Source: Candidatus Woesearchaeota archaeon (GTDB taxonomy: Archaea; Nanobdellota; Nanobdellia; SCGC-AAA011-G17; UBA489). Taken from it: a DNA stretch of 64,000 nt. The stretch lies in the NCBI GenBank assembly GCA_018655015.1, contig JABIKK010000008.1:8791-72790 (forward strand). The letters run 5' to 3'. The position numbers and the translations under genes are program-made. Below, one piece after another: positions 32,548 through 48,071 of this stretch (positions are counted from its first letter, which is position 1; each line of letters begins with the position of its first letter). The notes beneath the pieces are model-generated. The model was not told the DNA's origin. It worked only from the letters and a program-made list of their open reading frames with translations, and ran no database searches.

Positions 32548-32672
32548 ATATTGGTCTAGATAATAATGTTTATAATCCTCGACTGATTAGTTGGTAGGTA
32601 CGATAAATGCCAAAAATAAAGTCTCGTCGTAATCCTAAAATAGTTAAAAAGAAGAATATTGGGTTAATAATT

Positions 32673-33095: not shown

Positions 33096-33180
33096 CTATG
33101 TGGGCTTTAGCAACGAAATGCTTAAAAATATCTAGCCTAGTTTTAGTATGTAATAATATGTTAAAAGGGATGGTTAATTA

Positions 33181-33954: not shown

Positions 33955-33967
33955 AGAGGTGATTTAG

Positions 33968-34450
33968 GTGTTAACGTTACAGTTTGTTCCGTATGGGGAG
34001 ATTGAGAATCTTTCTTCAAAAAATAGAATAGAAAAATTATTGGATATTGTTAAGCAAGATAAGATAGTTCTACTACAAGGTAGATTGAAACCTGAAGAAG
34101 AGACTATGTTGATCATGGAGACTATGGCTCAAATAAACAAGAAGTTTAGAGGTGTAGAGATTTGTACAATCTATCCTGAAGAGAATAATTTACAATTTTT
34201 TAATAAGATAAAAAAAGAAATGGTTAAGTTCTTGATTGGAAATAGGGATGGAGTTACTATAATCGGTCCATCTACTGTTGTTAAAGAAGTTAGAAGGAAT
34301 CCTAATAAGATTGAGTTGTTTACCTTGCCAGGTATGAAGGGTTTGAAGTCAAAATCTATTGCAAGAAGGAAAACAACTAAGAAAAAAATAGCATCTAGAA
34401 AGAGAACTACTAGGACAGTGAAGAGAACTGTTAAAAGGAGACGTAGATAA
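33968..34450 (+). CDS. conserved hypothetical protein with an Arg/Lys-rich C-terminal tail, likely co-operonic with the GTPase
   Basis: 4-nt intergenic gaps to both neighbours. Globular 120-aa domain plus tail KSKSIARRKTTKKKIASRKRTTRTVKRTVKRRRR. Confidence 0.5.
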   Translation: MLTLQFVPYGEIENLSSKNRIEKLLDIVKQDKIVLLQGRLKPEEETMLIMETMAQINKKFRGVEICTIYPEENNLQFFNKIKKEMVKFLIGNRDGVTIIGPSTVVKEVRRNPNKIELFTLPGMKGLKSKSIARRKTTKKKIASRKRTTRTVKRTVKRRRR

Positions 34451-34833
34451 TGCCTCACCAATGTGTAAGATGTTCTAAGATGTATGAAGATGGTTCTAAA
34501 GAAATTCTTACTGGTTGCTCTTGTGGTGGAAAATTCTTTTTCTTCATGAAAGAAAAATCTGTTGAAGATGCCAAAAAGATTACTACTCAATTAAGTACTG
34601 TTGACAAAGTTCAAATGGAAAAAGATGCCATGGAACTTGTTGGTGAAAAGAGCGATAATGAAAGTAAAAAAGATTTACCTGTTGTTTTAGACTTAGAATC
34701 AATTCGTGTTTTGAAGCCAGGACATTTTGAGATAGATTTAGTTGATTTGTTTAAGGGCGAACCTTTGGTCTATAAGTTATCTGATGGGAAGTATATTATT
34801 GATATTGCCTCTACATTCAAGAAAGAAGAATGA
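34450..34833 (+). CDS. zinc-ribbon protein (CxxC...CxCG), third gene of the GTPase cluster
   Basis: MPHQCVRCSKMYEDGSKEILTGCSCGG at the N-terminus. Start overlaps the previous stop. Confidence 0.5.
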   Translation: MPHQCVRCSKMYEDGSKEILTGCSCGGKFFFFMKEKSVEDAKKITTQLSTVDKVQMEKDAMELVGEKSDNESKKDLPVVLDLESIRVLKPGHFEIDLVDLFKGEPLVYKLSDGKYIIDIASTFKKEE

Positions 34834-34838
34834 TTGTA

Positions 34839-34912
34839 TGGGGACACCAGGATTTGAACCTGGATACGCCGCTCTGGAGGCGGCAACACTAACCGGGTTA
34901 TGCTATGTCCCC
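34839..34912 (-). tRNA. tRNA-Trp (anticodon CCA)
   Basis: Reverse complement GGGGACATAGCAT...GCCGC-CTCCAGA-GCGGC...CCAGGTTCAAATCCTGGTGTCCCCA. 7-bp acceptor stem, T-loop TTCAAAT, anticodon loop with CCA. 74 nt. Confidence 0.85.
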
Positions 34913-34936
34913 TTGGAGATGATGTGTAACAATTTG

Positions 34937-34944
34937 ATTTAAAA
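34937..34944 (-). promoter_or_regulatory. putative TATA box (TTTTAAAT) about 27-34 nt upstream of tRNA-Trp
   Basis: AT-rich octamer at the expected archaeal TATA distance from the mature tRNA 5' end. Confidence 0.35.
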
Positions 34945-35136
34945 GCTTTCTTGATTTTAGAATTTTGAAGGTCTTTGAATATGGTAAATAGAGGCTCTGT
35001 AATATATTATTATTAGAGAGTGATGAAATATATATTTACCATCGAAAGGTTTATATAGCATTCTTAACCGACCAATAGTAACAGTACTACTCGCGTAGAT
35101 ACTGACATTACGATCCTTTAGGGGGGTTAACTAAAG

Positions 35137-36453
35137 ATGAAAATGACAAGACACATAAAGAATATAGCCTTCTTTGTTTTAGCTTTGGTGGCATTAATAG
35201 GTACTGCTGTATCTGTTAGCGCAACTCCAGATTATCAGATAATTTCAGTTGAAGTTAATGATCTAAACATTGTAGGTAGTACCCTTGACGTTGAGAGGGG
35301 CGAAAGATTGGATATTGAAGTTAGGATAGAAGCAGGAAATACTTCTACCGAAGACGTTCAAGCATCCGGTTGGATAAATGGTTATGAGTTTGGAAGAATT
35401 TTTGATTCAACTGAACTATTTGACATGGACTCAGGTAAGACTTATTTGAAGACTCTAACATTGTATGTTCCAGAAGATATAGAAGCTTCTGAAGATTATA
35501 CTTTGAGAATTGAGGTTTCTGATAGACAAGATCAAGTTGAAGAAACTTTTGATTTGTTTATTGATGAGCAGAGACATGGTTTAGCGATCTTTGACGTTCT
35601 TTTGAACCCAAGTAGCACAATTGCTGCAGGAAACACATTGTTTACTACAGTTAGATTGGAAAATCTTGGATCTAAGGAAGAGAATGACATTAAAGTGACT
35701 GTATCCATTCCAGCATTAGGTGTAAGCACTGTTAATTATCTTGACGAGCTTAATACTGAGGCGCAGGAAGAGGGTGAAGATCACCTAAGAAACGATAATA
35801 GTAAGCAGATAGATCAAATCATTAGGATTCCTATCGATGCTGTTACTGGAGTCTATGATGTACAAGTAGATATTGAGTACAACAGAGGAAACAGCTTCTT
35901 GAGTAAGACTTTGAGTCTTAATGTAGAAGGTGTTAACCAAGCTTCCGGAGCACAGACTGTTATTAATAGTGACTCTAGCTCAAAAGTAGTTAGTGTTGGT
36001 GAATCAGCTGAGTATAAGGTAATGATGGCAAACTTAGGTTTAGAGCCTGGAGTTTATTCCGTAACTGTTGATGGAGTATCAGCATGGGGAGAAGCTGTAG
36101 TGCAACCTAGTTTCTTGACTGTTATGCCTGATTCAACTGGTGAAGTTACAATTACTGTAACACCATACGATTCAGCAGAAGCTGCAAGTCACACATGGGT
36201 AGCTAAAGTTATGCTAGGAACTGACGTTCTAAGCGAGCTTGTGTTTACTACAAAAGTTGAAGCAGAGAATGTTGTTGAAAGGACTGACGATACAGTTAAG
36301 TCTATTTTGACTGCGATCTTCTTTATCTTGTTGATAGTATTGGTTATTTTGGCTATTGTTATTGCTTTTAGAAAAGTTAGAAGCGATGATGAGGACGACG
36401 AGGGTACAACCCTTGAAGGTCAAACTTATTACCAATATTACCCGAGAAACTAA
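35137..36453 (+). CDS. cell-surface protein: signal peptide, beta-sandwich (CARDB-like) domains, C-terminal TM anchor and acidic tail
   Basis: SP MKMTRHIKNIAFFVLALVALIGTAVSVSA. C-terminal ILTAIFFILLIVLVILAIVIAF plus DDEDDEG tail. Confidence 0.65.
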   Translation: MKMTRHIKNIAFFVLALVALIGTAVSVSATPDYQIISVEVNDLNIVGSTLDVERGERLDIEVRIEAGNTSTEDVQASGWINGYEFGRIFDSTELFDMDSGKTYLKTLTLYVPEDIEASEDYTLRIEVSDRQDQVEETFDLFIDEQRHGLAIFDVLLNPSSTIAAGNTLFTTVRLENLGSKEENDIKVTVSIPALGVSTVNYLDELNTEAQEEGEDHLRNDNSKQIDQIIRIPIDAVTGVYDVQVDIEYNRGNSFLSKTLSLNVEGVNQASGAQTVINSDSSSKVVSVGESAEYKVMMANLGLEPGVYSVTVDGVSAWGEAVVQPSFLTVMPDSTGEVTITVTPYDSAEAASHTWVAKVMLGTDVLSELVFTTKVEAENVVERTDDTVKSILTAIFFILLIVLVILAIVIAFRKVRSDDEDDEGTTLEGQTYYQYYPRN

Positions 36454-36565
36454 ATCTAAAGAGGTTAACCCCTCTTTTTTCTTTTTTCATTAACCATAAT
36501 ATTTATAATACTGTAGTGCAACCTTTTTCTATTAGATTTAATGATCTTCAAAAGGGGTAGATTAC

Positions 36566-39500
36566 TTGTATAAGAAGTATATTACAAAAAAAGGGAAGAA
36601 GGTAGGGCCTTATTATTATGATAGTATTAGATTGAAGAATGGTCGAGTTAAATCTGTTTATCTTGGTAGTGATGAGAAGAAAGCTAGACAGAAATTAAAA
36701 GTTTTAAAGAAAGAAAGTTCTAAGGCTGTTCATAAAAGAAGTAGTGCAACTCTTAAAAAATCTTTAAATCCTAGATCAAACGCCAAATTGATTGGCGATC
36801 ATAATGTTCATGTGAGGGATAGAGTTTTCTTATCTATTGTTTTAATTATGATGTTAGTTAGCTTTATGCATTTTGGAGGTATTATTGGTGGAGATTCTAG
36901 TGAAAGTATTAATGGTGGGTTTGTAAATGAGTTTAGGACTTTCTCTGATATGGCTCGCGAAGGTTTTTCAGAAAGTAATAAAATAACAGGAGAAGTTATT
37001 TTTTCAAATAGAAATGAAATTACTGGAGAATCTATTTTTTCTAAGTCTGTTGATCCCGAAGAACATTCTCATGATGTTTCTTTTTTGGTAAGTGAAAGCT
37101 CAGAGTATAGGTTAAATTTTGAGAATGTTGAAAAATTATTAAGTTTGAAGGTTTCAGGAAGAATTGCTTATTTTGAAGGGGGGATTGCTAAGGTTTTCTT
37201 ATCCGATGTTGACTCTGGGGATACCTATTTAGTTTATGATAGTGAATTATCTAAAGATGAAAATATTTTGGATGCTGTAGGTATAACTGGGAGTGTTGTG
37301 TTAGAGGAAAAGTTAGAGAAATCAAAGAGTTACAAAGATATTGTGTCTTCATTAACGGGGTTCAATGTTGTTGATTCTAAAGGCAAGTTTGTGAATTATG
37401 GGCTATCTAATGGGAGCAATGGTACCGCGATTATTGATTTAAGAAACAAAGATGTTTTTGAAATTGAGTATCCTAAAAAAGAGGGATGGATTGCTTATGA
37501 GGAATATTCTTCAAGAGGTTTAATTGAACCAACTAATATCTCTTTTGAAAGGGTGTTTGGGTTTGACTTTAGTGGATTGAACATTTCTAGGTTTAATGAA
37601 ACGAATACATCATTTAGTACTTCGCCAGAAGGCTCCTATCTTTATGGTTGTAGTTTTTGGGATTTTGAATTTGGAATTTGTTTATCTGATTGGGTTTTCT
37701 TTTTTGATTTAAACAAAACTAATAATTATACTGTTAGTTTGACTACTGAAGTAATGGCCTTTGCTGAAGGCATTTTAGATTTGGATGACGAGGAAGAGAA
37801 AAAACTTGAGGAAGTAGTTGAAGAAGTTGAAGAAAACAAAACAGACTTTTTGATTGATATTTTAGATGTTTTGAACATTACTAGTTATGGTATTGATTCT
37901 TTTGATTCTATTTGTGAAGGTACTTGTAAGATGAAGAATGTTTGGGGTAATAATTTTCTTTTGAAGGTTTATGTTAAGGATTCTATTTTAGATTTAGATT
38001 TAATCGAAACAGAATCTGAGGTTTTAGAGGGAGGAGTGTATTCTCTTTCCATCATTGATGGAATTGGAAGCATTTTATTGGGAGGAGGGGATGGTTCTGA
38101 ATTAGTGGGGGGTGTTGATGATCAAGTTGGAGGGATTACTGAATTCTTTGATAATGGTAATTTTACTGAAGAAGTAGTGCAATTTGGGGCTGTAATTGAT
38201 CAACCTGTTAAGTGGAAGAAAAAAATAATTTTAGATTCTGCAAAGAAAGATGTTGAATTTGAGATCCCTGATACTGCAGAAAATATCACTTTAAAGAAGA
38301 TTGTTAGTGGGAAAATATTGAATGTTATATCTGCAGGATTGGATGAGGGCAATGGTACTATTATCAACTTAACAGAGGGAAATAGTGGGTTTTCTGATAA
38401 TCTATTGAATTCTATGACAGGTAATGCGATAACTGGTATGGCTGTTGCGGAGACACCTTTGTTGGAGAATATTTCTTCAAAAGTCTTGAGTGTTAATGTG
38501 AGTAATAATACTGATACTATTTTTGTGGACGATTTAGTAAATACTGTGGAAGTTGAATATGAAACTCCAGGCCCAAGATTGGAAGTTCAAAATAAAACTA
38601 ATGGGTTTAGAGTTGTTTTAAAATCTGATATTGAGTATGTGAATATTTTTACATTCCTTGATATTCCAGAAACTCCTATGAATAAAGTAAGACTTTACCA
38701 AGTTACAGTGGATAATGTTACGGGGAGAGAATATAGGATTAAACATAATTATACTTTGTATGGGTCTAATAATACTGGATTGGCGAATTATATTGAATGG
38801 ATGATTCCTACTTCAGGAGATGATACTTTTGATATTCAAACTGAAATAAATGCAACGGCGGCAATTCATTTGGATGAGAACTATGTTTATATCAGTGATA
38901 TTTTTGATGAAGTACAATTTGAGGATGTTATATGGAGTGAGACAATCTATAGGGATGATTATGTAAGGGTTACTTTTGAAAAAAACTTAACGAATGGTAG
39001 GTTGATTGATGTGATTGCGAGAAGTAATGGTTCTTTATCTTATTTTGAAATTTATGAAGCTAATACGACTAATTTGGTGGGTAAATCTTCAGTTGTTGAT
39101 TATCCAGAAGTTCAATATATTGAAGTGAGTGGTTTGAGTAAACCTACAGATGTATTTGACTTTAAATTTATGAACTTGGTTAGTGATCCTGAAGACTATA
39201 AGGCTTGTGTCAAGTTGGGTTATTGGGTTTGTGACAGAAATCCGGAATCTTCAGAGAACTGTCATGCGGAGGTAGAAGAAGATTGTAATTCTCCAGTTTA
39301 TGATCTAAATAGAACTTCAACTATGGAGTTTGATTTTATTCACGACGATGTTATTAATTCTACACAGGCGGAAGGTATGATCGTATATATTCAATCAGAA
39401 AGTGCGACACCCAGATATAGATTTTGGAATGAATCTGATGATTTCGAGGCTGAACAAAGTGCTCTGGCTACGGGAAGTGATGGGACTGATGATATTGCAT

Positions 39501-42500
39501 GGGTTGTAATAAAAGGGAATCATGAAAGAAATGAGATGATTCTTGGTACTCAAGATATTGTTGAGGATATAAATATACAAATATATAATGGTACGGCTTG
39601 GAATAATTTAACAGAAGTTACAACTACGGCAGAAATTGAAAATCAAAGGCAATTTGATATTGCTTATGAAGATATATCTGGTGATGCTTTAATTGTTTAT
39701 GAGAATAGTAATGGGCACACTAATACAGATGTAGCCTATAGGATTTGGAATGGTACTGGAATTTCTCCCGAAACTGTTTTTACAGAAGCATCTAACAATG
39801 GAGAGATTCTTTGGGTTAAGTTATTTTCAGAACCGGGAACGGATAATATAATGTTACTAACCCAGAATGATGCCCCTTCAAGCTTTGATCTTTATGCTGT
39901 AGTGTGGAATGGTACTGGTTTTGATACTGATACTGAAGAGATTTTGAATGGGACTGTGGCTGATACAACTCAGCATATGGATTTTAGGTGGGAATCTAAA
40001 ACTAGGGGGGAAGGTTTAGTCATGTATGGAGTGGGAACTAATATCATGTGGAGGACTTATTCTTCTGCTACTGGTTGGGGGAAAGAGAATCCGACTGATT
40101 TGGGTCAATCTGATCGTTCAACTAGATTGTGTTCTGATCCGACGTCCGACCATATAGGTCTTATTCTTTTTGATGGTGGGAATGATATTAATGTTAATGT
40201 CTTTGATGGAACTTCGATGCTTGGGGGGGCACCTAGTCAAGAGGGTTTTGCGGAGTCTCACGGCGTGTATAACTCCAATGTAGGCTGTGCATGGGTTAAT
40301 AGTTCTACAGCAGTTTTTGGATTCGTAGATAATGGATTATTAGCTATTGACTGGATTACTTTTTCAAAAACCGCCCTTTGGAGTACTGGTAATTTAGGAA
40401 CATCTACTTCGACTACAACTAATTTTGCAACTGACGATATTGAAGCTTTAAGGTTTGTAAAACATCCTACCACTGATGAGATAATGGTTGCAGCAATAGA
40501 TAATTTGGAAGATTTAACTACAATTAGATGGGAGGGAACTACACCTATTGTTCCAGGTCACTCTTTATTAGAATCAGCAACTCAAGTAGATCAAGGGCAT
40601 ACTGAAGACGCAAGATTCGATTGGTTTAGATATGATCCTACCCCGAACGTTACTAGTTTAAATCCGACTGGAGAAACCTTTACTGTTTCAACTGCAATCT
40701 CATTAAATGCTACTATTGCTGATAACTTAGTAGTGGATGATGTATTAGCAAATGTTACACATCCAAATGCTACTGTTGAACAGGTTGTACTTGCTGATGC
40801 TGATGCTGATGGGGTATATAATGTTTCATTTACTGGGGCTAGTAATACTGGAACTTATACTGTAAGAATAATTGCTAATGATACAAGTACACATAAAAAT
40901 ATTAATAGTACTGAGACTACAACATTTATAGCTGCGGATGCTCCTGGTGGTGGAGATATTCCTCCAACTGTAACATTAAATGGGCCTGCTAATGGTACGG
41001 TTTATACTGAAGTAGGAAAAATTGTTTTGAATGCGACGGTTGAAGATGCAGAGGATAGTACATTGTTTGTTAGAATTTATGGTAGTAATGGAACCACTTC
41101 TGCTGAATTAGATTCAAAGGATTTGCTTTACTACAATGAATCCGATGCTAATGCTTCTTTTGTAGATTATAATTGGACTGCGCCAGTTTTGGATGCTTCT
41201 GATGATTATCTGTTGTTAGTTCATTTAGATAATAATTCACTTGATTTTGGGGAAAGTTATGATAGCGTCTTTGATTTTGCACCTGCTGATGGGGTACAAA
41301 ATGGAACAATTCAATCTCTTGGTGCAATAAATATTTCTCGGGGAAAGTTTGGAGGGTCTTATTTTTCTACAGCAAGTGGGGCAGATGACACTAATCGTGT
41401 GGATTTTGGAGATCAAGATACATGGATTGATGAAGGGAATATATCCTATTTAATGTGGGTTAAACCCAGAAGTATAACTGCTACAAAGGGTATTTTGGAT
41501 AAAAGGTTAGTTGAGACATTTAATGCAGATGGATTTAGTATTAGACAAGTTGACAGAACTCTGAGAATACGGTTTGATCAGGAAACTTGGGATACAACTG
41601 ATGTTTTTAATGTAAAAACTTGGACACATATTGCCGTTGTTTTTAATGCTAGTAATGGGGCCTTTTTATATCTTGACGGGAGACTAAACGGTTCCTATGG
41701 ATTCGATAATATTACAGCAAATAATATTAATTTTGCGATAGGCAATGCAAGGTCTAATCTGGAGTATACTCATCCTTTTGCAGGATGGATTGATGAAGTT
41801 GCAATAATTAATAGGACTCTTGGGGCAGATGAGGTTCTTGATGCATACAGATTGAAATCTGGAAATCATACTTGGTACTATCAGGTTAATGATTCTGGCG
41901 GGAATAAAACGCTAAGTAATTCGCAATGGTTCTTGATAGATAGGAAACCTAATGTAACTTCATTGTCTTTTACTCCAACTGGACCGAATACAACTCTTGG
42001 ATTGAATTGTACTTTTACACCTTATGATGATTTGGATAGTACTTTGAATGCAACAATAAAATGGTATAATGGGAGTAATACATATTCAACTACTGTTGTT
42101 GAAGGAATGACTTCAGGCAGCGCCTATACTCATAATGTATCTGCTTATGTGCATAGGCATTACCAAGAATGGAATTGTAGTGTGTTGACTACTGATCGTC
42201 AAGGGAGTAATGCAAGTAAGATTAATTCGACTACAAGATCGGTTGTTAACTTTGAGCCCGGAGCACCTACATTGAATACACCTATAGAAACTACAACTTA
42301 CATTGATAGGGTTCCAACATTCAATTGGACGCCTCCTGATGAATTTGGTAAATTGCCAAACACTGGTGATGGTGGTTGTGGAGCTACGTTCTTCTGTGAT
42401 GGTAGGACTTCTGATCCAGATGAAGATCAGGTGACTTATTCATTAAATATAAGCTGTACTACTGGACCAAGTGTATGTGATGATAATCAGCAATTTACTG

Positions 42501-43147
42501 TAACAGAAAATATAACAAATTGTGATTCTAATGGTAATAGTTATTTAGACAATCAAGACAATTGTAATTTCACATTACCTAATGCATTAAGCTATTTCAT
42601 AGATGACGGAAAATATTATACTTGGACAGTCATAACTTCTGATCCAAATGTTACCGAGCCAGATACTCCTGTGGAATTAAACTATAATATTAGTGTTTAT
42701 GTTGCAATAGCTGTTTTGAATAAAAATGCTAACTTCGGAACAATGATTCCTGGTACTACAAATAGTACTTCTGGGTGTAGTCCCTCGGCGGAGTGTGAAC
42801 CACAACCAATTTGGTTACAGAATGCTGGTAACACAGACTTTGATGTGAATTTAACTGGGCCGAGTGATGCTTTGTTTACAGCAATATCTAATCCTCATGC
42901 GATTAGTTATTTTTCTGTGAATGTTAACAATGGTACTGAAGGACAATCATTTAATATGACTGACTCAATTGTTAGCTATACTGCTCTGCCTGCTGTGGGG
43001 ACAGATATATTATTTGTTAATGACTTTGGATGGAATGATAGTGCTGATGAAATTACGATTGATGTTAATGTTTCTGTTCCGGCAAATGAAACTGAAGGAA
43101 CAAAGGGGACTTCGTTAGCATTTACAGGGTGGTATTACATTGCTTAA
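36566..43147 (+). CDS. giant (2193 aa) membrane-anchored surface protein with LamG/concanavalin-A-like domain, many N-glycosylation sequons, and a basic N-terminal cytoplasmic segment
   Basis: N-terminal 90 aa K/R-rich, then TM FLSIVLIMMLVSFMHFGGIIG, then a large extracellular region. The LamG-like segment is WIDEGNISYLMWVKP...WTHIAVVFNASNGAFLYLDGRLNGS...FAGWIDEVAIINRTL. Confidence 0.8.
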   Translation: MYKKYITKKGKKVGPYYYDSIRLKNGRVKSVYLGSDEKKARQKLKVLKKESSKAVHKRSSATLKKSLNPRSNAKLIGDHNVHVRDRVFLSIVLIMMLVSFMHFGGIIGGDSSESINGGFVNEFRTFSDMAREGFSESNKITGEVIFSNRNEITGESIFSKSVDPEEHSHDVSFLVSESSEYRLNFENVEKLLSLKVSGRIAYFEGGIAKVFLSDVDSGDTYLVYDSELSKDENILDAVGITGSVVLEEKLEKSKSYKDIVSSLTGFNVVDSKGKFVNYGLSNGSNGTAIIDLRNKDVFEIEYPKKEGWIAYEEYSSRGLIEPTNISFERVFGFDFSGLNISRFNETNTSFSTSPEGSYLYGCSFWDFEFGICLSDWVFFFDLNKTNNYTVSLTTEVMAFAEGILDLDDEEEKKLEEVVEEVEENKTDFLIDILDVLNITSYGIDSFDSICEGTCKMKNVWGNNFLLKVYVKDSILDLDLIETESEVLEGGVYSLSIIDGIGSILLGGGDGSELVGGVDDQVGGITEFFDNGNFTEEVVQFGAVIDQPVKWKKKIILDSAKKDVEFEIPDTAENITLKKIVSGKILNVISAGLDEGNGTIINLTEGNSGFSDNLLNSMTGNAITGMAVAETPLLENISSKVLSVNVSNNTDTIFVDDLVNTVEVEYETPGPRLEVQNKTNGFRVVLKSDIEYVNIFTFLDIPETPMNKVRLYQVTVDNVTGREYRIKHNYTLYGSNNTGLANYIEWMIPTSGDDTFDIQTEINATAAIHLDENYVYISDIFDEVQFEDVIWSETIYRDDYVRVTFEKNLTNGRLIDVIARSNGSLSYFEIYEANTTNLVGKSSVVDYPEVQYIEVSGLSKPTDVFDFKFMNLVSDPEDYKACVKLGYWVCDRNPESSENCHAEVEEDCNSPVYDLNRTSTMEFDFIHDDVINSTQAEGMIVYIQSESATPRYRFWNESDDFEAEQSALATGSDGTDDIAWVVIKGNHERNEMILGTQDIVEDINIQIYNGTAWNNLTEVTTTAEIENQRQFDIAYEDISGDALIVYENSNGHTNTDVAYRIWNGTGISPETVFTEASNNGEILWVKLFSEPGTDNIMLLTQNDAPSSFDLYAVVWNGTGFDTDTEEILNGTVADTTQHMDFRWESKTRGEGLVMYGVGTNIMWRTYSSATGWGKENPTDLGQSDRSTRLCSDPTSDHIGLILFDGGNDINVNVFDGTSMLGGAPSQEGFAESHGVYNSNVGCAWVNSSTAVFGFVDNGLLAIDWITFSKTALWSTGNLGTSTSTTTNFATDDIEALRFVKHPTTDEIMVAAIDNLEDLTTIRWEGTTPIVPGHSLLESATQVDQGHTEDARFDWFRYDPTPNVTSLNPTGETFTVSTAISLNATIADNLVVDDVLANVTHPNATVEQVVLADADADGVYNVSFTGASNTGTYTVRIIANDTSTHKNINSTETTTFIAADAPGGGDIPPTVTLNGPANGTVYTEVGKIVLNATVEDAEDSTLFVRIYGSNGTTSAELDSKDLLYYNESDANASFVDYNWTAPVLDASDDYLLLVHLDNNSLDFGESYDSVFDFAPADGVQNGTIQSLGAINISRGKFGGSYFSTASGADDTNRVDFGDQDTWIDEGNISYLMWVKPRSITATKGILDKRLVETFNADGFSIRQVDRTLRIRFDQETWDTTDVFNVKTWTHIAVVFNASNGAFLYLDGRLNGSYGFDNITANNINFAIGNARSNLEYTHPFAGWIDEVAIINRTLGADEVLDAYRLKSGNHTWYYQVNDSGGNKTLSNSQWFLIDRKPNVTSLSFTPTGPNTTLGLNCTFTPYDDLDSTLNATIKWYNGSNTYSTTVVEGMTSGSAYTHNVSAYVHRHYQEWNCSVLTTDRQGSNASKINSTTRSVVNFEPGAPTLNTPIETTTYIDRVPTFNWTPPDEFGKLPNTGDGGCGATFFCDGRTSDPDEDQVTYSLNISCTTGPSVCDDNQQFTVTENITNCDSNGNSYLDNQDNCNFTLPNALSYFIDDGKYYTWTVITSDPNVTEPDTPVELNYNISVYVAIAVLNKNANFGTMIPGTTNSTSGCSPSAECEPQPIWLQNAGNTDFDVNLTGPSDALFTAISNPHAISYFSVNVNNGTEGQSFNMTDSIVSYTALPAVGTDILFVNDFGWNDSADEITIDVNVSVPANETEGTKGTSLAFTGWYYIA

Positions 43148-44342
43148 GAGGAATATAAAGCTTAAATTAGGAACATTAGGATTAATTTTGATAGTGATGC
43201 TTTCTGTGCCATTAGTTAGTGCTTTTGGTGTAACTCCTGCTAGGAATAATCTGGATTTTGAGGAAGGTTTGAGTTATTCTGGAACTTTTAGAATTATTAA
43301 TGGGGAAATGCAACCATTGATTATTTCAATTAGTAAACAGGGGAAGTTGGCAGATTATGTCTCTGTTGCTGACAATTTTATTTTTAAAGAGGGGGAGAAG
43401 GAGAAGACAGTACCCTATAAATTAAATCTCCCAAGAAATTTGCCAGTAGGAGTTTTGGAACAAGGAACAAATGCCATTAATTTCTTTATATCTTCTGAGA
43501 GTGAATTAGTGGATGTTGGGGGAGATAAAATAAGCGCGGAAATTAGAGTAGTTACTTCATTGATTATAAGGGTTCCATATGATGAGAAATATGCCGAGTC
43601 TGAATTATTTGTTTTAGAAGGTGATGCTGGTGGGAGGACGTTATTTATCATGCCTGTACAGAACTTTGGCAATGATGAATTGAAAAGTGTTAGTGCTAAA
43701 GTTAGAGTTCATGATTCTGATGGGGGTCTTGTAGAAGAAGTTACATCTGAAAGAGTTATGATTCCTATTGGGGAAGTGAAAGAACTAAGAACTGTTTGGA
43801 ATGCATTAAGTGGTCCTGGAATTTATTCTGCAGAAGTTGTTATTAATTATGATGGTGGTAAAATTGAAATTGATAGAGAATTTACTATTGAGGGTAAGAG
43901 GTTGAATCTTGAAGGAGTTAATGTTGGGGAATTTATTAAAGGGGATGCTGTAAGGTTTGATGTTCTAATTGAAAATGTTTGGGATGAGGATTTAGATAAT
44001 GTATGGGCTAGAATGGAAGTTTACGACTTAGAAGATAATGTTGTATCTACATTTACTACTCAGTTTAAGGATATTGAGTCTGGAGAGAAAAATATTTTAA
44101 CGGGATATTTAGAAACTGAGGGTTTTGAAGAAGGACAATATATTACTAAAATATTGGTTTATTATGGGGATAAGGCTATAGAAAAAAGAGTTAATACTTT
44201 TGTTAGTGCGGAAGGAATTACAACTGATTTGACTTACGAAGAAAGTTTTAGTTTAAATTATACTTTGATAATTGTCGGTGGTTTGGCCTTGCTTGTGTTG
44301 ATTAACATTATTTGGTTTATTTTCTTTAAAAAGAGGGATTAA
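43140..44342 (+). CDS. surface protein: signal peptide, three beta-sandwich domains, C-terminal TM anchor. Paralog of the 45361 gene
   Basis: SP ...VPLVSAFG, CARDB-like ELRTVWNALSGPGIYSAEVVINYDG, C-terminal LIIVGGLALLVLINIIWFIFFKKRD. Start overlaps the giant gene's stop. Confidence 0.65.
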   Translation: MLKRNIKLKLGTLGLILIVMLSVPLVSAFGVTPARNNLDFEEGLSYSGTFRIINGEMQPLIISISKQGKLADYVSVADNFIFKEGEKEKTVPYKLNLPRNLPVGVLEQGTNAINFFISSESELVDVGGDKISAEIRVVTSLIIRVPYDEKYAESELFVLEGDAGGRTLFIMPVQNFGNDELKSVSAKVRVHDSDGGLVEEVTSERVMIPIGEVKELRTVWNALSGPGIYSAEVVINYDGGKIEIDREFTIEGKRLNLEGVNVGEFIKGDAVRFDVLIENVWDEDLDNVWARMEVYDLEDNVVSTFTTQFKDIESGEKNILTGYLETEGFEEGQYITKILVYYGDKAIEKRVNTFVSAEGITTDLTYEESFSLNYTLIIVGGLALLVLINIIWFIFFKKRD

Positions 44343-44411
44343 GAAAAGTATATACCTCTTAATCTAAAAATCAAAATATTTATATACTACTGTATTGTTA
44401 TTTCCATTGTT

Positions 44412-44636
44412 ATGGGTAGGGCTAAAAAGAAAGAGGTTAATCGAGAATTCGTTTTCGCTCTTATGATCGTTGTTATTTTTGTAGCATTATTACTTACTTG
44501 GTCTTTTATTAGTTCTGTTGAAGAGAACAGTGAAGGTGGATCAATTAATCAAGATTATTATGAAGAAGGGCTAGGAAAGGTTTCTTTGGAAATAGTTTCT
44601 TCTCCCGAAGGTACTGAAGATGGTGGTGGAGAATAA
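44412..44636 (+). CDS. small membrane-anchored acidic protein
   Basis: Basic N-terminus, one TM, acidic C-terminus. Stop overlaps the next start. Confidence 0.35.
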   Translation: MGRAKKKEVNREFVFALMIVVIFVALLLTWSFISSVEENSEGGSINQDYYEEGLGKVSLEIVSSPEGTEDGGGE

Positions 44637-45322
44637 TGGAAGTTACTGATAGAACTTTAACTGTTACAGGTGTTGTTACTTTATTAGTTGTACTAGGTTG
44701 TGTTGGAGTTGTTTTGACAACTGTTGGTGGTTTAGGTGGTTTGTCAGGATTTTCTGTATTAAACACTACTTACGGCCATGTTAATATTTCTGTATCTACA
44801 ACTGTTGATGTGGGCATGGAGGTAAATAATATTGATTTTGGATCTGGTTATGTTAACGCAGCTGGAAACACATTAGTTAACTCAACTACAATTCCATCAT
44901 CAACAACTAATCCAAATGGGTTTAGTTCTCCTACAAGTTTCTGGTTGAGAAATGAAGGAAATGTTTATATTAATTTAACCATTAATGGAAGTACTGCGAA
45001 TGATTTATTCGCTGGTGCTAGTGCATCTTACCAATATAGATTAGAGAACACTAGTTTAACCGAGTCAAGAAATACTACTTGTTTCGATTATGCTGGAACA
45101 TGTACTAATATCAATTGTTATACAGCATATGCCGGAATACTTCAAGATATGGCTAACACTGATAAGAGTGTTTGTCCAAACATGTCCTACTTTAATGTTA
45201 CTGAAGTTGCTGATGGTTGGACTGATGAGTTTAATGTATCTATTAGCTTTGTACTGAATACTTTAACGAATGGTACTGTATCTGATACAATTTGGTTTAC
45301 TGCTAGATCTCTTGGAAGTTAA
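44636..45322 (+). CDS. N-terminally TM-anchored Ser/Thr/Asn-rich beta-domain protein, heavily sequon-laden
   Basis: TM VVTLLVVLGCVGVVL. More than 12 N-x-S/T sequons. Distant similarity to the 46550 protein (I[ND]FG[ST]..G...N.ST). Confidence 0.55.
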   Translation: MEVTDRTLTVTGVVTLLVVLGCVGVVLTTVGGLGGLSGFSVLNTTYGHVNISVSTTVDVGMEVNNIDFGSGYVNAAGNTLVNSTTIPSSTTNPNGFSSPTSFWLRNEGNVYINLTINGSTANDLFAGASASYQYRLENTSLTESRNTTCFDYAGTCTNINCYTAYAGILQDMANTDKSVCPNMSYFNVTEVADGWTDEFNVSISFVLNTLTNGTVSDTIWFTARSLGS

Positions 45323-45360
45323 TTAGTTAGCCTTATAAATTATAGGAGATAGTTAGATTT

Positions 45361-46548
45361 ATGTCAAGGGGTGCTTTTTTACTGGCGTTATTACTTTTAA
45401 CTCCTTTAACTGTAAGTGGTCTTGGTATATCTCCTGCAGATGTTTATATTGATTTTAAACCCTATGAGGAAGGAGAATTTGAAGTTAGGGTTATTAATAA
45501 CGACCTAGAACCGGTTAATGCATCTTTAAATGTGCAAGGAGAGTTAGAAGAATATTTTAAAATAGTTGATAATGTTAAAGAGATACCTGCTGAAGGTTCA
45601 TTACCTTTTTTGATTTCTTATGTTCTTCCTAAAAGCATTAATACACCTGGACAAAACAAACTTGATCTGATGGTTACAGATCTTAGTGAAATAACTGGTG
45701 GCGTTTCTGCTATTTTGAATGTAGCTGCAAGGATAGTAATAGATGTTCCTTATCCTGACAAATTTGCTCAGCATAGTTTTAGTGTTGTTAGTGTAAATGA
45801 GGGGGAGATGATTAATTTTGAGTTTAATATTCAAAGTGCTGGGGAGAAAAATATTTTTGGATTGAGGCCGTTTGTGAAGGTGCTAGATTCAGATAATAAA
45901 ACAGTTCTGTATGAACTTGAGGGAAAAATGAGTACATATACTACTGGTGAAAGAAAAAATGTAGTTCTTCAACTAAACAGTAGTGAGATTGGAAAGGGAA
46001 CCTTTACAGCAGAAACTTATATAGATTATGATGGTATTGAAAGTCCTCATAAAAACTTTATATTTTCAGTGGGCTATAAGGATGTAGATGTGATAGATTA
46101 TACTCCCTTTTTAACTCCCGGAGGTATAAAGAAGATTGTTTTCACTTTAGAAAATAAATGGAACTCAGATATTGATGAGTTGCATATAGAGTCATATTTG
46201 CAAAAAGATGGGGTACCTTTTACTGAAAGATCTGTGTCGAATATTGCTAACTTAAAGGCGCTAGATAGGGTAGAAATACCTGTTTTTATTGATATCTCAA
46301 ATTTAAACACTGGAAAATATGATTTGATTGCTGAGTTGCATTACAATGATGTAAATGAGATTGAAATTATGGACTTTAAAATTACGGAGGGAGGGTTCAA
46401 AATTAATAAAGGAATAATTTTTGGATTCTTACTTTTACTAATTGTTTTGGCAAATATAATCTGGTTGAGACATTATGGTAGGCCTCAAGATAAAAATGAT
46501 GGTTCAGAGGATAAGTTAAAAAATCTTCAAGGATATTTAGGTAAGTAA
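45361..46548 (+). CDS. surface protein paralog of the 43140 gene (signal peptide, beta-sandwich domains, C-terminal TM anchor)
   Basis: SP ...LTVSGLGISPA. RIVIDVPYPDKFAQ corresponds to the paralog's IRVPYDEKYAE. C-terminal GFLLLLIVLANIIWL. Confidence 0.65.
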   Translation: MSRGAFLLALLLLTPLTVSGLGISPADVYIDFKPYEEGEFEVRVINNDLEPVNASLNVQGELEEYFKIVDNVKEIPAEGSLPFLISYVLPKSINTPGQNKLDLMVTDLSEITGGVSAILNVAARIVIDVPYPDKFAQHSFSVVSVNEGEMINFEFNIQSAGEKNIFGLRPFVKVLDSDNKTVLYELEGKMSTYTTGERKNVVLQLNSSEIGKGTFTAETYIDYDGIESPHKNFIFSVGYKDVDVIDYTPFLTPGGIKKIVFTLENKWNSDIDELHIESYLQKDGVPFTERSVSNIANLKALDRVEIPVFIDISNLNTGKYDLIAELHYNDVNEIEIMDFKITEGGFKINKGIIFGFLLLLIVLANIIWLRHYGRPQDKNDGSEDKLKNLQGYLGK

Positions 46549-46549
46549 A

Positions 46550-46963
46550 ATGTTAAGTAAATTTAGTTTTAGGAAATGGTTGATTCTCTTAATTGTAGGT
46601 TTAATTATAGTTATTTTAGCTTCGTTTATTTATAATAAAAGCAATATTATTGGATATGAGGAATATCCCGTTACTTACTCTGTTGGTGGGGGCTATATTG
46701 GTATAAATCTTAGTCCTGGAGAAATTAACTTTGGCACTACACCTACAGGTTATATGTTTAGTAGATCTATAAATATTTCTACAGATTTAGATTCCGAAGT
46801 TTTGGTTTACTCGCAAGGGATAGACTATCTTACCATTACAGAGGAAGATTTTTACTTGCCTGCAGGAGAGTCTCGTGAGGTTGGTCTTTTATTACAAGTT
46901 CCGGAAGGGCATCCTGAAGGTATTTACAAAGGGAAGCTTATTGTAGTGATTAAGAAGGCATAG
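46550..46963 (+). CDS. small N-terminally anchored beta-domain protein
   Basis: TM WLILLIVGLIIVILASFIY, then EINFGTTPTGYMFSRSINISTD, similar to the 44636 protein. Confidence 0.5.
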   Translation: MLSKFSFRKWLILLIVGLIIVILASFIYNKSNIIGYEEYPVTYSVGGGYIGINLSPGEINFGTTPTGYMFSRSINISTDLDSEVLVYSQGIDYLTITEEDFYLPAGESREVGLLLQVPEGHPEGIYKGKLIVVIKKA

Positions 46964-46997
46964 TAAAGTATTTAATTGGAATATTTCTCTCAATACT

Positions 46998-48071
46998 ATG
47001 GGTGGTAGTACAAAGAGGGTGAAGGGTCTAACTAGGGTAGAATTTCTCCACCAAACTAACATGATTTCCGTTCTTTTGTTAGTGTTTATTGTTGTTGTTT
47101 TAATTACGTCTTCAAAAATTTTAGAAAGGATGGGTGAAGATGAGATAGAAAGAGCTTATATGACTGGAAGGGCATCTACTGAACAGGTGCAGGGAAATGT
47201 TTCTTTAAATATTATTGATGAGCCTACTACTAATGCAACTATCACTACAACAGCTGTAGCTGCGGCAACCACAATAGGAGATGTACTAACTTCTGGTGGG
47301 AAATTAGGATTTATCCCTGGAAGACTTGAATTGGATATGTTCTATAAGGGGATTGTTGAAAGGGATTTAATTATAAAAAATAATGCTAATTATGAATTGG
47401 ATCTGAGTTTTGGAACTAGTTTGAAGGACTACGTTGTAGTTGAATCTTCAAATATTATTATTGGAAAAGGTGAATCTGGGACCGTTACAGTTAGATTCAA
47501 TGGAAAGGACTTAGGAGTTATTACAGGTTACTTATCTGCTACTGGCAGCGGATTAAAAGGTTATATTCCCATTGTTTTAAATGTTGGATCCGCTCGCGCT
47601 ACGGGTCTTTTGAAAGTTACTATCCCCTCTGAGTTTAAGGAAGTTAATAGTGGCGATGATATCTTAGTTTCCGTGGAACTTGATGGATTTAATGGGGATG
47701 TTGTTGAGATAGTTTACATAATCAAAGATTCAGAGAATAATGAATTAATTAGGACTACACAGTCAATGACTATTGGAGACTCAGCTAGATTTGATAAGAC
47801 TTTAACTATGCCTAATGTAAGGGATGGATTATACATTGTGGGCGTGGAAGTAAGGTATGCAGGAATGACTTTGGTTGATTCTGAAATTTTAACTGTAGGG
47901 CATTATGAGCCATTCTCTGAGAAACCTTCTATTGTTGGGGGACTTGGATTAAATCCTGTTACGTTTAAGATAATACTCTTGTTAGTTATGATTATGATAA
48001 TAGTGCTATTCGCAACATACTCTCGTGAAGTGGGTAGGATTGGAGAGATTGAAAGAAGAAAGAAATTATAA
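46998..48071 (+). CDS. surface protein with an N-terminal signal anchor, beta-rich domains and a C-terminal TM anchor
   Basis: N-terminal TM VLLLVFIVVVLITSS. C-terminal FKIILLLVMIMIIVLFATY plus basic tail. Confidence 0.55.
   Translation: MGGSTKRVKGLTRVEFLHQTNMISVLLLVFIVVVLITSSKILERMGEDEIERAYMTGRASTEQVQGNVSLNIIDEPTTNATITTTAVAAATTIGDVLTSGGKLGFIPGRLELDMFYKGIVERDLIIKNNANYELDLSFGTSLKDYVVVESSNIIIGKGESGTVTVRFNGKDLGVITGYLSATGSGLKGYIPIVLNVGSARATGLLKVTIPSEFKEVNSGDDILVSVELDGFNGDVVEIVYIIKDSENNELIRTTQSMTIGDSARFDKTLTMPNVRDGLYIVGVEVRYAGMTLVDSEILTVGHYEPFSEKPSIVGGLGLNPVTFKIILLLVMIMIIVLFATYSREVGRIGEIERRKKL

What the first reader, a model, noticed from the sequence alone, without database searches (positions are those of the whole stretch)
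36566..43147. 2193-aa giant protein with a cytoplasmic basic N-terminus and a LamG lectin domain
About 90 K/R-rich residues precede the single N-terminal TM, and the rest is extracellular. The LamG-like block (WIDEGNISYLMWVKP ... FAGWIDEVAIINRTL) is an adhesion/carbohydrate-binding fold typical of eukaryotic ECM and bacterial adhesins. Sequons (NVTS, NATI, NGTV, NTS...) occur roughly every 30-40 aa, consistent with a heavily N-glycosylated adhesin.
Basis: seen in the sequence. Interest (0 to 1): 0.55.

Follow-up and report, generated by a model that had tools for sequence, protein, structure and literature searches.

The report
Giant glycosylated lectin surface protein, DPANN archaeon
This is a real 2193-residue, membrane-anchored, sugar-coated lectin protein on the surface of a tiny symbiotic-type archaeon (Woesearchaeota); such proteins are already known as a class, but this one carries two conserved end-pieces, shared by hundreds of other large archaeal surface proteins, for which I found no curated family or paper.

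Summary
ORF 36566-43147 is intact (2193 aa; TTG start, GGGGT ribosome-binding site 7 nt upstream). One TM lies at aa 87-109, after 86 residues with 26 K/R. A full-length Laminin_G_3 domain spans aa 1609-1757 (E=2.5e-18). There are 80 N-x-S/T sequons against 31±5 expected (z=10).

Thirteen collinear homologues (1793-2627 aa) in Woesearchaeota/Nanoarchaeota MAGs rule out a frameshift fusion.

Large N-glycosylated LamG surface proteins are already described in DPANN archaea, so the core reading is a new member of a known kind.

1. The "basic N-terminus" is a discrete ~37-aa module (KKYxxKxGKxxGPYYYxSxRxxGKVKxVYLG; predicted β-β-β-α). It is the most conserved part of the protein. It sits at the extreme N-terminus of 876 protein clusters, and a TM follows in most of the best matches.
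2. The last ~150 aa form a C-terminal domain, homologous to neighbour g228, that also ends 21 of 47 other long N-motif proteins.
3. The gene heads a conserved operon of six small membrane proteins, several with weak Ig-like matches.

No family in Pfam or NCBIfam reaches its cut-off for either terminal module. Function (attachment) is inferred.

The parts
36566..43147 (+). Giant surface protein gene, 2193 aa, predicted type II topology (N-terminus in, C-terminus out)
   Evidence: 13 homologues of 1793-2627 aa.
36502..36509 (+). TTTATAAT, a candidate archaeal TATA box 57-64 nt upstream of the start codon. It follows a hairpin plus T-run (36460-36488) that ends the upstream gene g438.
   Evidence: Read directly from the sequence. 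Function is inferred, not tested.
36554..36558 (+). GGGGT Shine-Dalgarno-like site, 7 nt before the TTG start
36566..36673 (+). N-motif (aa 1-36): MYKKYITKKGKKVGPYYYDSIRLKNGRVKSVYLG. Predicted three β-strands followed by a helix (aa 37-51). Cytoplasmic by the positive-inside rule.
   Evidence: A profile finds 876 clusters at E<=1e-3, and in all 150 best matches listed the match begins within the first ~25 residues, mostly at residue 1-2. AF2 gives strands at 2-8, 11-22 and 28-34 and a helix at 37-51, with pLDDT 52-81.
36674..36823 (+). Basic helix and linker (aa 37-86), including the family-invariant RSSAT (aa 58-62)
   Evidence: Invariant columns. Residues 1-70 average 80% identity against 37-58% for the ectodomain.
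36824..36892 (+). Single transmembrane helix, aa 87-109
   Evidence: Hydropathy scan. AF2 places a helix at 83-102.
37013..37075 (+). Juxtamembrane ITG repeats (NKITGEVIF / NEITGESIF); T153, G154 and I157 are invariant
   Evidence: A hydrophobic-T-G motif just after the TM occurs in 54 of 107 N-motif proteins, against 9 of 107 in a control window.
37076..39175 (+). Conserved N-proximal ectodomain modules (aa 171-870), including the highly conserved EGWIAYEEYSSRGLIEP...FWDFEFGICLSDW block with invariant C362 and C372
   Evidence: AF2 confidence is low for aa 302-426, and there is no Pfam hit.
39317..40660 (+). Variable central cassette (aa 918-1365): four copies of a ~105-aa internal repeat with WNGT-type motifs, probably a β-propeller
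   Evidence: hhalign self-hits at shifts of ~105 and ~212 residues, Prob 96-98%. Shared only with P0002, P0003 and an Aenigmarchaeota protein, P0015. The propeller fold is inferred.
40964..41188 (+). Ig-like domain (aa 1467-1541), Big_7-like
   Evidence: Pfam gives 17.7 bits, below the cut-off. The family profile hits PDB 9kvu, a bacterial Ig domain, at E=5e-4.
41390..41836 (+). LamG / ConA-like lectin domain (aa 1609-1757)
   Evidence: Pfam Laminin_G_3, E=2.5e-18, 67.1 bits. PDB hits 4qvs, 5hon and 6ype.
42260..42637 (+). Cys-rich β-sandwich domain (aa ~1899-2024) with the invariant SDPDxDxV and C/D/N-rich motif
   Evidence: AF2 pLDDT is mostly 70-86 in this segment, with dips to about 52-63. 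Invariant columns. Foldseek finds only generic FN3-like matches, none significant.
42668..43147 (+). C-terminal domain, CTD (aa ~2035-2193), homologous to the ectodomain of g228
   Evidence: hhalign Prob 95%, E=4e-8, 146 columns. The same domain lies within 0-9 residues of the C-terminus in 21 of 47 other N-motif proteins of at least 1000 aa.
35137..36453 (+). g438: signal peptide, weak sub-threshold Ig-like/NEW3-type matches, C-terminal TM and an acidic/Tyr-rich tail. Separate transcription unit, always nearby.
   Evidence: 59-91% identity across loci.
43140..44342 (+). g400: signal peptide, weak Ig-like matches, C-terminal TM. Overlaps the end of the giant gene by 8 nt.
44412..44636 (+). g74: small N-terminally anchored membrane protein
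44636..45322 (+). g228: N-terminal TM plus a stand-alone CTD-like domain, sequon-enriched
45361..46548 (+). g395: paralogue of g400
   Evidence: BLASTP E~1e-24.
46550..46963 (+). g137: N-terminal TM plus a single small extracellular domain related to part of g357
46998..48071 (+). g357: protein with a TM at each end. Its domain recurs fused to, or encoded beside, other N-motif proteins.

Best explanation
The gene encodes a type II membrane protein of a Woesearchaeota-type DPANN archaeon. A small conserved cytoplasmic N-motif and basic linker sit inside the cell. One TM helix anchors the protein. A ~2080-residue acidic, heavily N-glycosylated ectodomain projects outward. That ectodomain is a chain of β-rich modules: conserved membrane-proximal modules, a swappable central cassette (here a propeller-like repeat, in most relatives a second Ig-LamG unit), an Ig-LamG-Ig lectin unit, a Cys-rich β-sandwich, and a terminal CTD. 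The protein most likely acts as a lectin-type attachment protein, binding glycans or glycoproteins on a partner cell or substrate. It probably works in a surface complex with the co-transcribed small membrane proteins, one of which (g228) is a stand-alone membrane-anchored copy of the CTD. Shown here: the ORF, the domains, the sequon enrichment, the synteny and the module distribution. Inferred: the topology, actual glycosylation, complex formation, and the attachment function.
For: ORF, TM and charge. LamG domain. Sequon enrichment at z=10, specific to this protein and conserved. Archaeal/DPANN host. Module map with a conserved N module (aa 1-870), a variable middle, and a conserved C module (aa 1460-2190). 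Seven-gene + strand synteny, plus g438 nearby, in every locus long enough to show it, with overlapping or tightly spaced genes. CTD-g228 homology. N-motif in 876 clusters and CTD at the C-terminus of 21 of 47 other long N-motif proteins. The g357 domain is fused to or adjacent to other N-motif proteins. The literature treats large N-glycosylated LamG proteins as DPANN attachment proteins (PMC5498576, PMC7443923, PMC10266531).
Against: There is no experimental evidence for binding, glycosylation or localisation. The locus is single-copy and syntenic next to housekeeping genes across fairly distant relatives, which fits a core envelope structure as well as a host-specific adhesin. AF2 models were poor (mean pLDDT 52.8 and 62.4) and Foldseek found nothing significant, so about 60% of the ectodomain has no assigned fold. 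No oligosaccharyltransferase gene was looked for.
Confidence: 0.7

Rival explanations
1. It is a structural cell-envelope component, such as an S-layer-like coat or spacer of Woesearchaeota, rather than a partner-specific adhesin. On this reading the operon encodes the basic surface lattice and its anchors.
For: The locus and its gene order are conserved down to ~36-40% identity of the giant protein and sit between housekeeping genes (oapBC, SMC). g438 is very conserved, at 59-91% identity. Several partners are membrane-anchored and give only weak Ig-like matches.
Against: The central cassette is swapped between relatives and length varies from 1793 to 2627 aa, which is typical of recognition proteins. 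Lectin domains point to ligand binding. A ~2000-aa single-span protein is unlike known archaeal S-layer subunits (my own knowledge).
Confidence: 0.2
2. The N-motif and CTD are the two ends of a dedicated sorting or anchoring system. The N-motif would be recognised in the cytoplasm for insertion or positioning, and the CTD would dock the distal end onto g228-, g357- or g400-type partners. The giant would then be just one cargo of a DPANN-wide surface-display pathway.
For: The N-motif is at the N-terminus in all 150 best matches listed, a TM follows in most of them, and the motif is the most conserved segment of the protein. The CTD is always at the extreme C-terminus of otherwise different cargo, and named carriers are labelled NosD domain-containing, S8 family serine peptidase and UbiA family prenyltransferase. 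g228 is a free CTD. The g357 domain is repeatedly fused to or adjacent to N-motif proteins.
Against: No ATPase, protease or sortase-like gene lies in the operon. Small, apparently soluble N-motif proteins exist (P0030, P0045, P0059), so the motif is not purely a secretion signal. The g400, g74, g228 and g395 genes were seen only with this family. All of the evidence is comparative.
Confidence: 0.35
3. The N-motif is a cytoplasmic nucleic-acid-binding β-hairpin module related to the Sulfolobus origin-binding nucleoid protein UBP. It would tether DNA or RNA to the inner face of surface proteins.
For: 39 of 72 N-motifs give sub-threshold hits to NCBIfam NF052683, 'UBP family nucleoid-associated protein' (best E=1.8e-4), and 41 of 72 to Pfam DUF1678 (best 9e-5). 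The module is Lys/Arg-rich and predicted to be β-hairpins, and UBP binds dsDNA through β-hairpins (PMC12141716).
Against: All hits are below the curated cut-offs. A 72-sequence N-motif profile finds no PDB chain of UBP at E<=10 (the PDB copy was made in 2026 and the UBP entries 9EFD/E/F date from a 2025 paper, so they should be included, but I did not verify this). Arm-type DNA-binding families hit only 1 of 72 each, at E about 0.5-1.5.
Confidence: 0.12
4. It is an artefact: two genes fused by a frameshift or assembly error, or a wrong start codon that creates the basic N-terminus.
For: None found. The only oddity is the unusual TTG start.
Against: Two full-length collinear homologues (62% and 57% identity) and eleven more keep both end modules, in independent assemblies. 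The N-motif is conserved at the protein level in 876 clusters. A ribosome-binding site sits at the right spacing.
Confidence: 0.01

Closest known systems
Large LamG/ConA-like N-glycosylated surface proteins of DPANN archaea (Mia14 'ARMAN-2'; Ca. Nanohalobium, Nanohalococcus and Nanohalovita)
   Same: DPANN host, very large size, LamG lectin domain, Ig-like and β-propeller modules, many N-glycosylation sequons, clustering with other surface-protein genes, and a presumed role in host attachment (PMC5498576, PMC7443923, PMC10266531).
   Different: Those proteins are described as strain-specific and as having Sec signal peptides. This family is syntenic across Woesearchaeota. It has an uncleaved-looking N-terminal anchor preceded by a conserved cytoplasmic N-motif and ends in a conserved CTD. 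Neither module is mentioned in those papers.
Gram-positive Csc / WxL cell-surface complex operons (small and large WxL proteins plus the DUF916/WxLIP membrane anchor)
   Same: The architecture is analogous. A small and a giant protein share one C-terminal domain (g228 and the giant). They are encoded with type I membrane proteins that have a signal peptide and a C-terminal TM (g400, g395) and with small anchored proteins.
   Different: No WxL domain was detected. WxLIP_HBD is only sub-threshold (27.2 against 28.9 bits) and competes with generic Ig families. Archaea have no peptidoglycan for WxL to bind. This is analogy only; the Csc description rests on my own knowledge.
Extended N-terminal signal regions of giant bacterial glycoprotein adhesins (the KxYKxGKxW signal of accessory-Sec substrates such as GspB; YSIRK; ESPR)
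   Same: A conserved Lys/Tyr/Gly-rich motif at the very N-terminus of huge glycosylated surface proteins, with a long (~90 aa) pre-hydrophobic region.
   Different: No NCBIfam or TIGRFAM hit. The motif here is a ~37-aa predicted β-sheet separated from the TM by 8-154 residues. Archaea lack SecA/SecA2 (my own knowledge).
UBP (ucm-binding protein) of Sulfolobales / Pfam DUF1678
   Same: A small basic β-hairpin-rich archaeal module with recurrent weak profile similarity.
   Different: UBP is a free 111-aa nucleoid protein (PMC12141716). All matches are sub-threshold, and there is no match to the PDB sequences.
SPEARE-type giant proteins of Nanohaloarchaeota
   Same: Giant membrane-anchored DPANN surface proteins with Ig-like and propeller modules.
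   Different: Those are 5000-9400 aa and include a VirB4/TraG-like ATPase region (PMC10266531). No ATPase or comparable domain is present here.

Membership tests
Laminin_G_3 / ConA-like lectin superfamily (Pfam PF13385) | HMM score above the gathering threshold over most of the model | tested here: met
   67.1 bits against a 27.6 cut-off, E=2.5e-18, model positions 4-150 of 151, aa 1609-1757. All 13 homologues carry PF13385.
Laminin_G_3 / ConA-like lectin superfamily | Carbohydrate or Ca2+ binding by the domain | not testable with these tools
   Needs a glycan array or ITC on the recombinant domain.
DPANN large LamG surface (attachment) proteins | Encoded by a DPANN archaeon | tested here: met
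   Archaeal gene set in the window. Homologues lie in MAGs titled Woesearchaeota or Nanoarchaeota.
DPANN large LamG surface (attachment) proteins | Exported or membrane-anchored, with many N-glycosylation sequons | tested here: met
   Single N-terminal TM. 80 sequons against 31±5 expected. 25 sequons are conserved. Actual glycosylation was not tested.
DPANN large LamG surface (attachment) proteins | Strain-specific, rapidly varying | tested here: inconclusive
   The central cassette is swapped and length varies, but the locus and both ends are conserved and syntenic.
KxYKxGKxW-type signal peptide (accessory Sec substrates) | Match to the curated signal-peptide model, with the motif adjoining the hydrophobic core | tested here: not met
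   No NCBIfam hit for the protein or for 72 N-motifs. The motif is separated from the TM by 50 residues here.
WxL / Csc cell-surface complex | WxL domain at the C-terminus of both the small and the large protein | tested here: not met
   No WxL hit in the giant, the g228 family or the CTD set, even at E<=10.
WxL / Csc cell-surface complex | DUF916/WxLIP membrane-anchored partner | tested here: inconclusive
   WxLIP_HBD hits 3 of 18 g400/g395 members; the best is 27.2 bits, below the 28.9 cut-off, alongside CARDB, FixG_C and Big_13 hits.
UBP family nucleoid-associated protein (NF052683) / DUF1678 | Score above the curated cut-off; similarity to the crystallised UBP | tested here: not met
   Best E is 1.8e-4 (NCBIfam) and 9e-5 (Pfam); the one bit score shown was below its cut-off, and the listing does not give scores against cut-offs for the best members. 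No PDB UBP match at E<=10.
PGF-CTERM / archaeosortase substrates | C-terminal PGF motif, TM helix and basic tail | tested here: not met
   There is no hydrophobic segment other than aa 87-109. The protein ends ...LAFTGWYYIA. No NCBIfam hit.
Archaeal type IV pilin-like proteins (class III signal peptide) | Short basic N-terminus, a [KR]-[GAS] cleavage site directly before the hydrophobic stretch, and a PilB/PilC-type machinery nearby | tested here: not met
   86 residues precede the TM. No ATPase or platform genes were found among the + strand neighbours scanned, 30168-48071.
TasA/camelysin-like fibre subunits (considered for the CTD and g228) | Peptidase_M73/TasA family match | tested here: not met
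   No such Pfam hit at E<=10 for the g228 family or the CTDs. No PDB sequence hit.

The most novel reading that the evidence does not exclude
The N-motif (cytoplasmic, ~37 aa) and the CTD (extracellular, ~150 aa) together define an apparently undescribed modular surface-display system found in Woesearchaeota- and Aenigmatarchaeota-labelled (DPANN) assemblies. Diverse giant cargo (LamG lectins, and proteins labelled NosD domain-containing or S8 family serine peptidase) would be inserted N-in by a conserved cytoplasmic handle. Their distal end would be captured by a shared C-terminal domain that pairs with small membrane-anchored partners (the g228, g357 and g400 families). This would be a functional counterpart of signal-peptide/LPXTG, T9SS-CTD or WxL systems, built from unrelated parts.
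Probability: 0.3. Interest if true: 0.75.

Novelty: new variant of a known kind. Interest (0 to 1): 0.5.

Why it matters
DPANN archaea are thought to live attached to other cells, yet almost nothing is known about how their huge surface proteins are inserted, anchored and organised.

This locus provides a syntenic Woesearchaeal lectin-protein operon. It also provides two compact sequence handles: the N-motif, found in 876 clusters, and the CTD. With these handles one could enumerate the surface-protein repertoire of such genomes, choose targets for cryo-ET labelling or glycoproteomics, and test whether a dedicated sorting or anchoring pathway exists.

If the modules turn out to be only structural decoration, the finding reduces to one more DPANN LamG adhesin.

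Tried and rejected

2. My first guess for the N-motif was an AP2 / integrase arm-type DNA-binding fold. Arm-DNA-bind families hit only 1 of 72 sequences each, at E about 0.5-1.5, so I dropped it.

3. The KxYKxGKxW signal idea found no NCBIfam support.

4. TasA-like, WxL, archaellin and pilin readings of the CTD and g228 found no recurrent Pfam hits and no PDB sequence hits.

5. A word-index homologue search with the 75-aa N-terminus returned only 4 fragments. The same search with the CTD profile returned only g228-like 216-aa hypothetical proteins.

I replaced it with a degenerate DNA pattern scan.

7. Literature searches for GPYYY, DUF1678 and DUF6788 found nothing relevant.

8. The frameshift-fusion hypothesis was rejected.

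Full report
1. THE OBSERVATION

The ORF at 36566-43147 (+) is uninterrupted and encodes 2193 aa. It starts at TTG, preceded by GGGGT at 36554-36558, 7 nt upstream. A TTTATAAT element lies at 36502-36509. A hairpin plus T-run (36460-36488) ends the upstream gene.

A hydropathy scan finds one TM segment, aa 87-109, and no other. Residues 1-86 contain 26 K/R and 6 D/E.

Pfam gives a full-length Laminin_G_3 match at aa 1609-1757 (67.1 bits against a cut-off of 27.6; E=2.5e-18). A weak Big_7 Ig-like match lies just upstream. A family profile also hits LamG/pentraxin-type PDB chains 4qvs, 5hon and 6ype.

There are 80 N-x-S/T sequons against 31.0±4.9 in 2000 shuffles, and none occurs before aa 282. 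In a control over 18 proteins of the window, only the giant (z=10.1), g228 (z=2.6) and g137 (z=3.1) are enriched. Cytoplasmic proteins such as SMC, RtcB and the FttA-type protein are not. 25 of the 80 sequons are preserved as sequons in at least 10 of 13 homologues, which carry 65-102 sequons each.

2. HOST AND FAMILY

The window (about 33% G+C) encodes RtcB, archease, a GTPase followed by OapB and OapC, an FttA-type protein (Beta-Casp, KH_TffA), SMC and a diphthamide synthase domain. It is therefore archaeal.

The protein has 13 clear homologues of 1793-2627 aa. The named ones come from Nanoarchaeota or Woesearchaeota MAGs. Two are collinear end to end, at 62% and 57% identity. This excludes a frameshift fusion.

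3. ANATOMY

BLAST and alignment show three regions:
- a conserved N module, aa 1-870;
- a variable middle, aa ~870-1460;
- a conserved C module, aa ~1460-2190.

In this protein, and in P0002 and P0003, the middle is a ~450-aa region built of four ~105-aa internal repeats. hhalign self-hits have Prob 96-98%. WNGT-type motifs recur in it, so it is probably an 8-blade β-propeller; that fold is inferred. The region is shared with an Aenigmarchaeota protein, P0015. In most other family members the middle instead holds a second Ig-LamG unit. The centre therefore behaves as an exchangeable cassette, and length polymorphism is confirmed.

Downstream of the LamG unit lie an Ig-like domain, a Cys/Asp-rich β-sandwich (aa ~1899-2024; AF2 pLDDT mostly 70-86) and a terminal ~150-aa domain.

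AF2 was poor overall, at 52.8 and 62.4 mean pLDDT. Foldseek against the PDB gave nothing significant. In particular, the strongly conserved block at aa ~300-410 (EGWIAYEEYSSRGLIEP...FWDFEFGICLSDW) has no assigned fold.

4. THE N-TERMINUS IS A MODULE, NOT JUST A BASIC TAIL

Residues 1-70 average 80% identity to the homologues (72% in the most distant six). The ectodomain averages 37-58%.

I searched a 70-column profile against 1.84 billion cluster representatives. It found 876 clusters at E<=1e-3 and 45 at E<=1e-10. In all 150 best matches listed, the match begins within the first ~25 residues, mostly at residue 1-2, and covers about 37-45 residues.

The core is M(V)YKKY(I/T)xKxGKxxGPYYYxSxRxxxGKVKxVYLG.

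The carriers range from 45 to 4246 aa. In most of the best matches a single TM follows, with a median of 22 and a range of 8-154 residues after the YLG. Named carriers are from Woesearchaeota and Aenigmatarchaeota. Their source names include 'NosD domain-containing protein', 'S8 family serine peptidase' and 'UbiA family prenyltransferase'. Several others also contain Big_7 plus LamG.

AF2 predicts β(2-8)-β(11-22)-β(28-34)-α(37-51) with pLDDT 52-81.

No family in Pfam or NCBIfam reaches its cut-off on this region. Recurrent sub-threshold hits go to:
- DUF1678, 41 of 72 sequences, best E=9e-5;
- DUF6788, 16 of 72;
- NCBIfam 'UBP family nucleoid-associated protein', 39 of 72, best E=1.8e-4.

UBP is a 111-aa Sulfolobus protein that binds dsDNA through β-hairpins (PMC12141716). 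However, the N-motif profile finds no UBP chain among the PDB sequences at E<=10. I keep this as a weak lead only.

Within the giant's own family, the helix and an invariant RSSAT (aa 58-62) are also conserved.

5. THE C-TERMINUS IS ALSO A SHARED MODULE

Profile-profile comparison shows that aa ~2039-2188 is homologous to the ectodomain of the neighbouring 228-aa protein g228 (hhalign Prob 95%, E=4e-8, 146 columns).

I built an HMM of this CTD and searched it against the N-motif proteins collected earlier. It hits 21 of the 47 proteins of at least 1000 aa outside the family. Whole-protein E-values for the hits outside the family run from 8e-11 to 1e-27. The match always ends 0-9 residues from the C-terminus, although the middles of these proteins differ.

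Many large N-motif surface proteins are therefore 'bookended': N-motif, TM, variable cargo, CTD. The CTD contains conserved sequons (NDT, LNYTD, NITVP). No curated family matches the CTD at all.

6. THE OPERON

In every related locus long enough to show it, the giant gene is followed by the same six genes. A seventh gene, g438, lies nearby upstream.
- g400 has a signal peptide, weak Ig-like matches and a C-terminal TM. Its start overlaps the end of the giant gene by 8 nt.
- g74 is a small anchored protein.
- g228 is an N-terminal TM plus a free CTD-like domain.
- g395 is a paralogue of g400.
- g137 is an N-terminal TM plus a single small extracellular domain.
- g357 has a TM at each end.
- g438, upstream, has a signal peptide, weak sub-threshold NEW3-type matches and a C-terminal TM. 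It is 59-91% identical across loci and forms its own transcription unit.

Gaps between the operon genes run from -8 to 69 nt.

The g357 domain is linked to N-motif proteins in other contexts as well.
- It is fused directly after the TM in 13 of the collected N-motif proteins.
- It is fused at the C-terminus in one (P0100).
- It is encoded next to P0016, a different N-motif β-helix giant.
- It is encoded next to eight metagenomic N-motif genes.

g400 and g395 give only sub-threshold Ig-like hits: CARDB, FixG_C and WxLIP_HBD (27.2 bits against a 28.9 cut-off). No ATPase, protease or sortase-like gene lies in the cluster.

7. HOW IT MOST LIKELY WORKS

By the positive-inside rule, the N-motif and basic linker stay in the cytoplasm. 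The TM acts as a signal anchor. The acidic ectodomain of about 2080 residues is exported and N-glycosylated.

A stalk of β-modules presents a variable cassette and a LamG lectin unit. The CTD either caps the distal end or docks back onto membrane-anchored partners, with g228 as the obvious candidate.

I put the reading 'glycosylated lectin-type attachment protein working in a multi-protein surface complex' at about 0.7. A purely structural envelope role is the main rival, at about 0.2.

The idea that the N-motif and CTD are the handles of a dedicated sorting or anchoring system is compatible with the main reading. I put it at about 0.3-0.35. The nucleic-acid-binding reading of the N-motif stands at about 0.1.

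8. COMPARISON WITH WHAT IS KNOWN

Large N-glycosylated LamG surface proteins, often alongside propeller, PKD or Ig modules, are already reported as a DPANN hallmark and as presumed attachment factors (PMC5498576, PMC7443923, PMC10266531).

I could not find three things in Pfam, NCBIfam, PDB sequences or the searchable literature:
- the N-motif;
- the CTD;
- the N-motif/CTD architecture together with its conserved accessory operon.

Functionally, the arrangement resembles bacterial two-ended sorting signals (KxYKxGKxW or YSIRK with LPXTG; the T9SS CTD) and the Csc/WxL operons, in which a small and a large protein share a C-terminal domain. Each membership test failed or was inconclusive, so these are analogies only.

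I rate the finding a new variant of a known kind, with moderate interest (0.5).

Noticed in passing
window 33181-34833: A GTPase gene followed by OapB and OapC (origin-associated protein) genes, just upstream of tRNA-Trp (34839-34912, - strand) and the surface-protein cluster. In other archaea this trio sits beside a replication origin, so an origin may be close by. No Orc1/Cdc6 gene or ORB repeats were looked for.
   Followed up: no
giant aa 150-166 (window 37013-37063); 107 N-motif proteins: A hydrophobic-T-G motif (e.g. ITG, FTG, LTG) occurs within ~22 residues after the TM in 54 of 107 N-motif proteins, against 9 of 107 in a control window. It is invariant (T153, G154) in the giant family and also appears after the TMs of g228 and g357. 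It could be a processing site or a conserved first β-strand.
   Followed up: partly
P0030, P0045, P0059; L092:5399-5995: The N-motif also occurs on small proteins. One kind is ~80-100 aa, apparently soluble, with a coiled-coil-like tail. Another is ~170-235 aa, with TM segment(s) in the C-terminal half and no large ectodomain. These could be cytoplasmic partners of the membrane-bound N-motifs.
   Followed up: partly
L092 (metagenome contig, 6437 nt): A variant of the cluster: giant C-terminus, then a g400-like gene, then two extra small genes whose sequences looked HTH-like and HEPN-like to me by eye (no family search was run), then a 154-aa gene resembling L003:16453-16932, then a small N-motif protein in place of g74/g228/g395.
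   Followed up: partly
window 35137-36453 (g438): This membrane protein, with only weak sub-threshold NEW3-type matches, is far more conserved (59-91% identity) than the giant protein (36-62%). It is sequon-depleted (1 against 3.4 expected) and has an acidic, Tyr-rich cytoplasmic tail (DDEDDEGTTLEGQTYYQYYPRN). It may be a major envelope component.
   Followed up: partly
L003:7841-9916 (- strand) and L003:16453-16932: In a more distant relative, a 691-aa FG-GAP repeat protein is inserted between g438 and the giant gene. An extra 159-aa membrane protein lies between the giant and g400. Neither is present in the window.
   Followed up: no
window 5516-8275: A second large surface-type protein (919 aa) with two CARDB domains (E=1.5e-26) and a weak PKD match. 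It has no sequon enrichment (13 against 12 expected).
   Followed up: no
window 48066-48071: The end of g357 (+ strand) and the end of the SMC gene (- strand) overlap convergently by 6 nt. The same tail-to-tail arrangement, with SMC on the opposite strand 1-4 nt beyond the g357 homologue, is kept in the related loci (L001, L003, L004).
   Followed up: no
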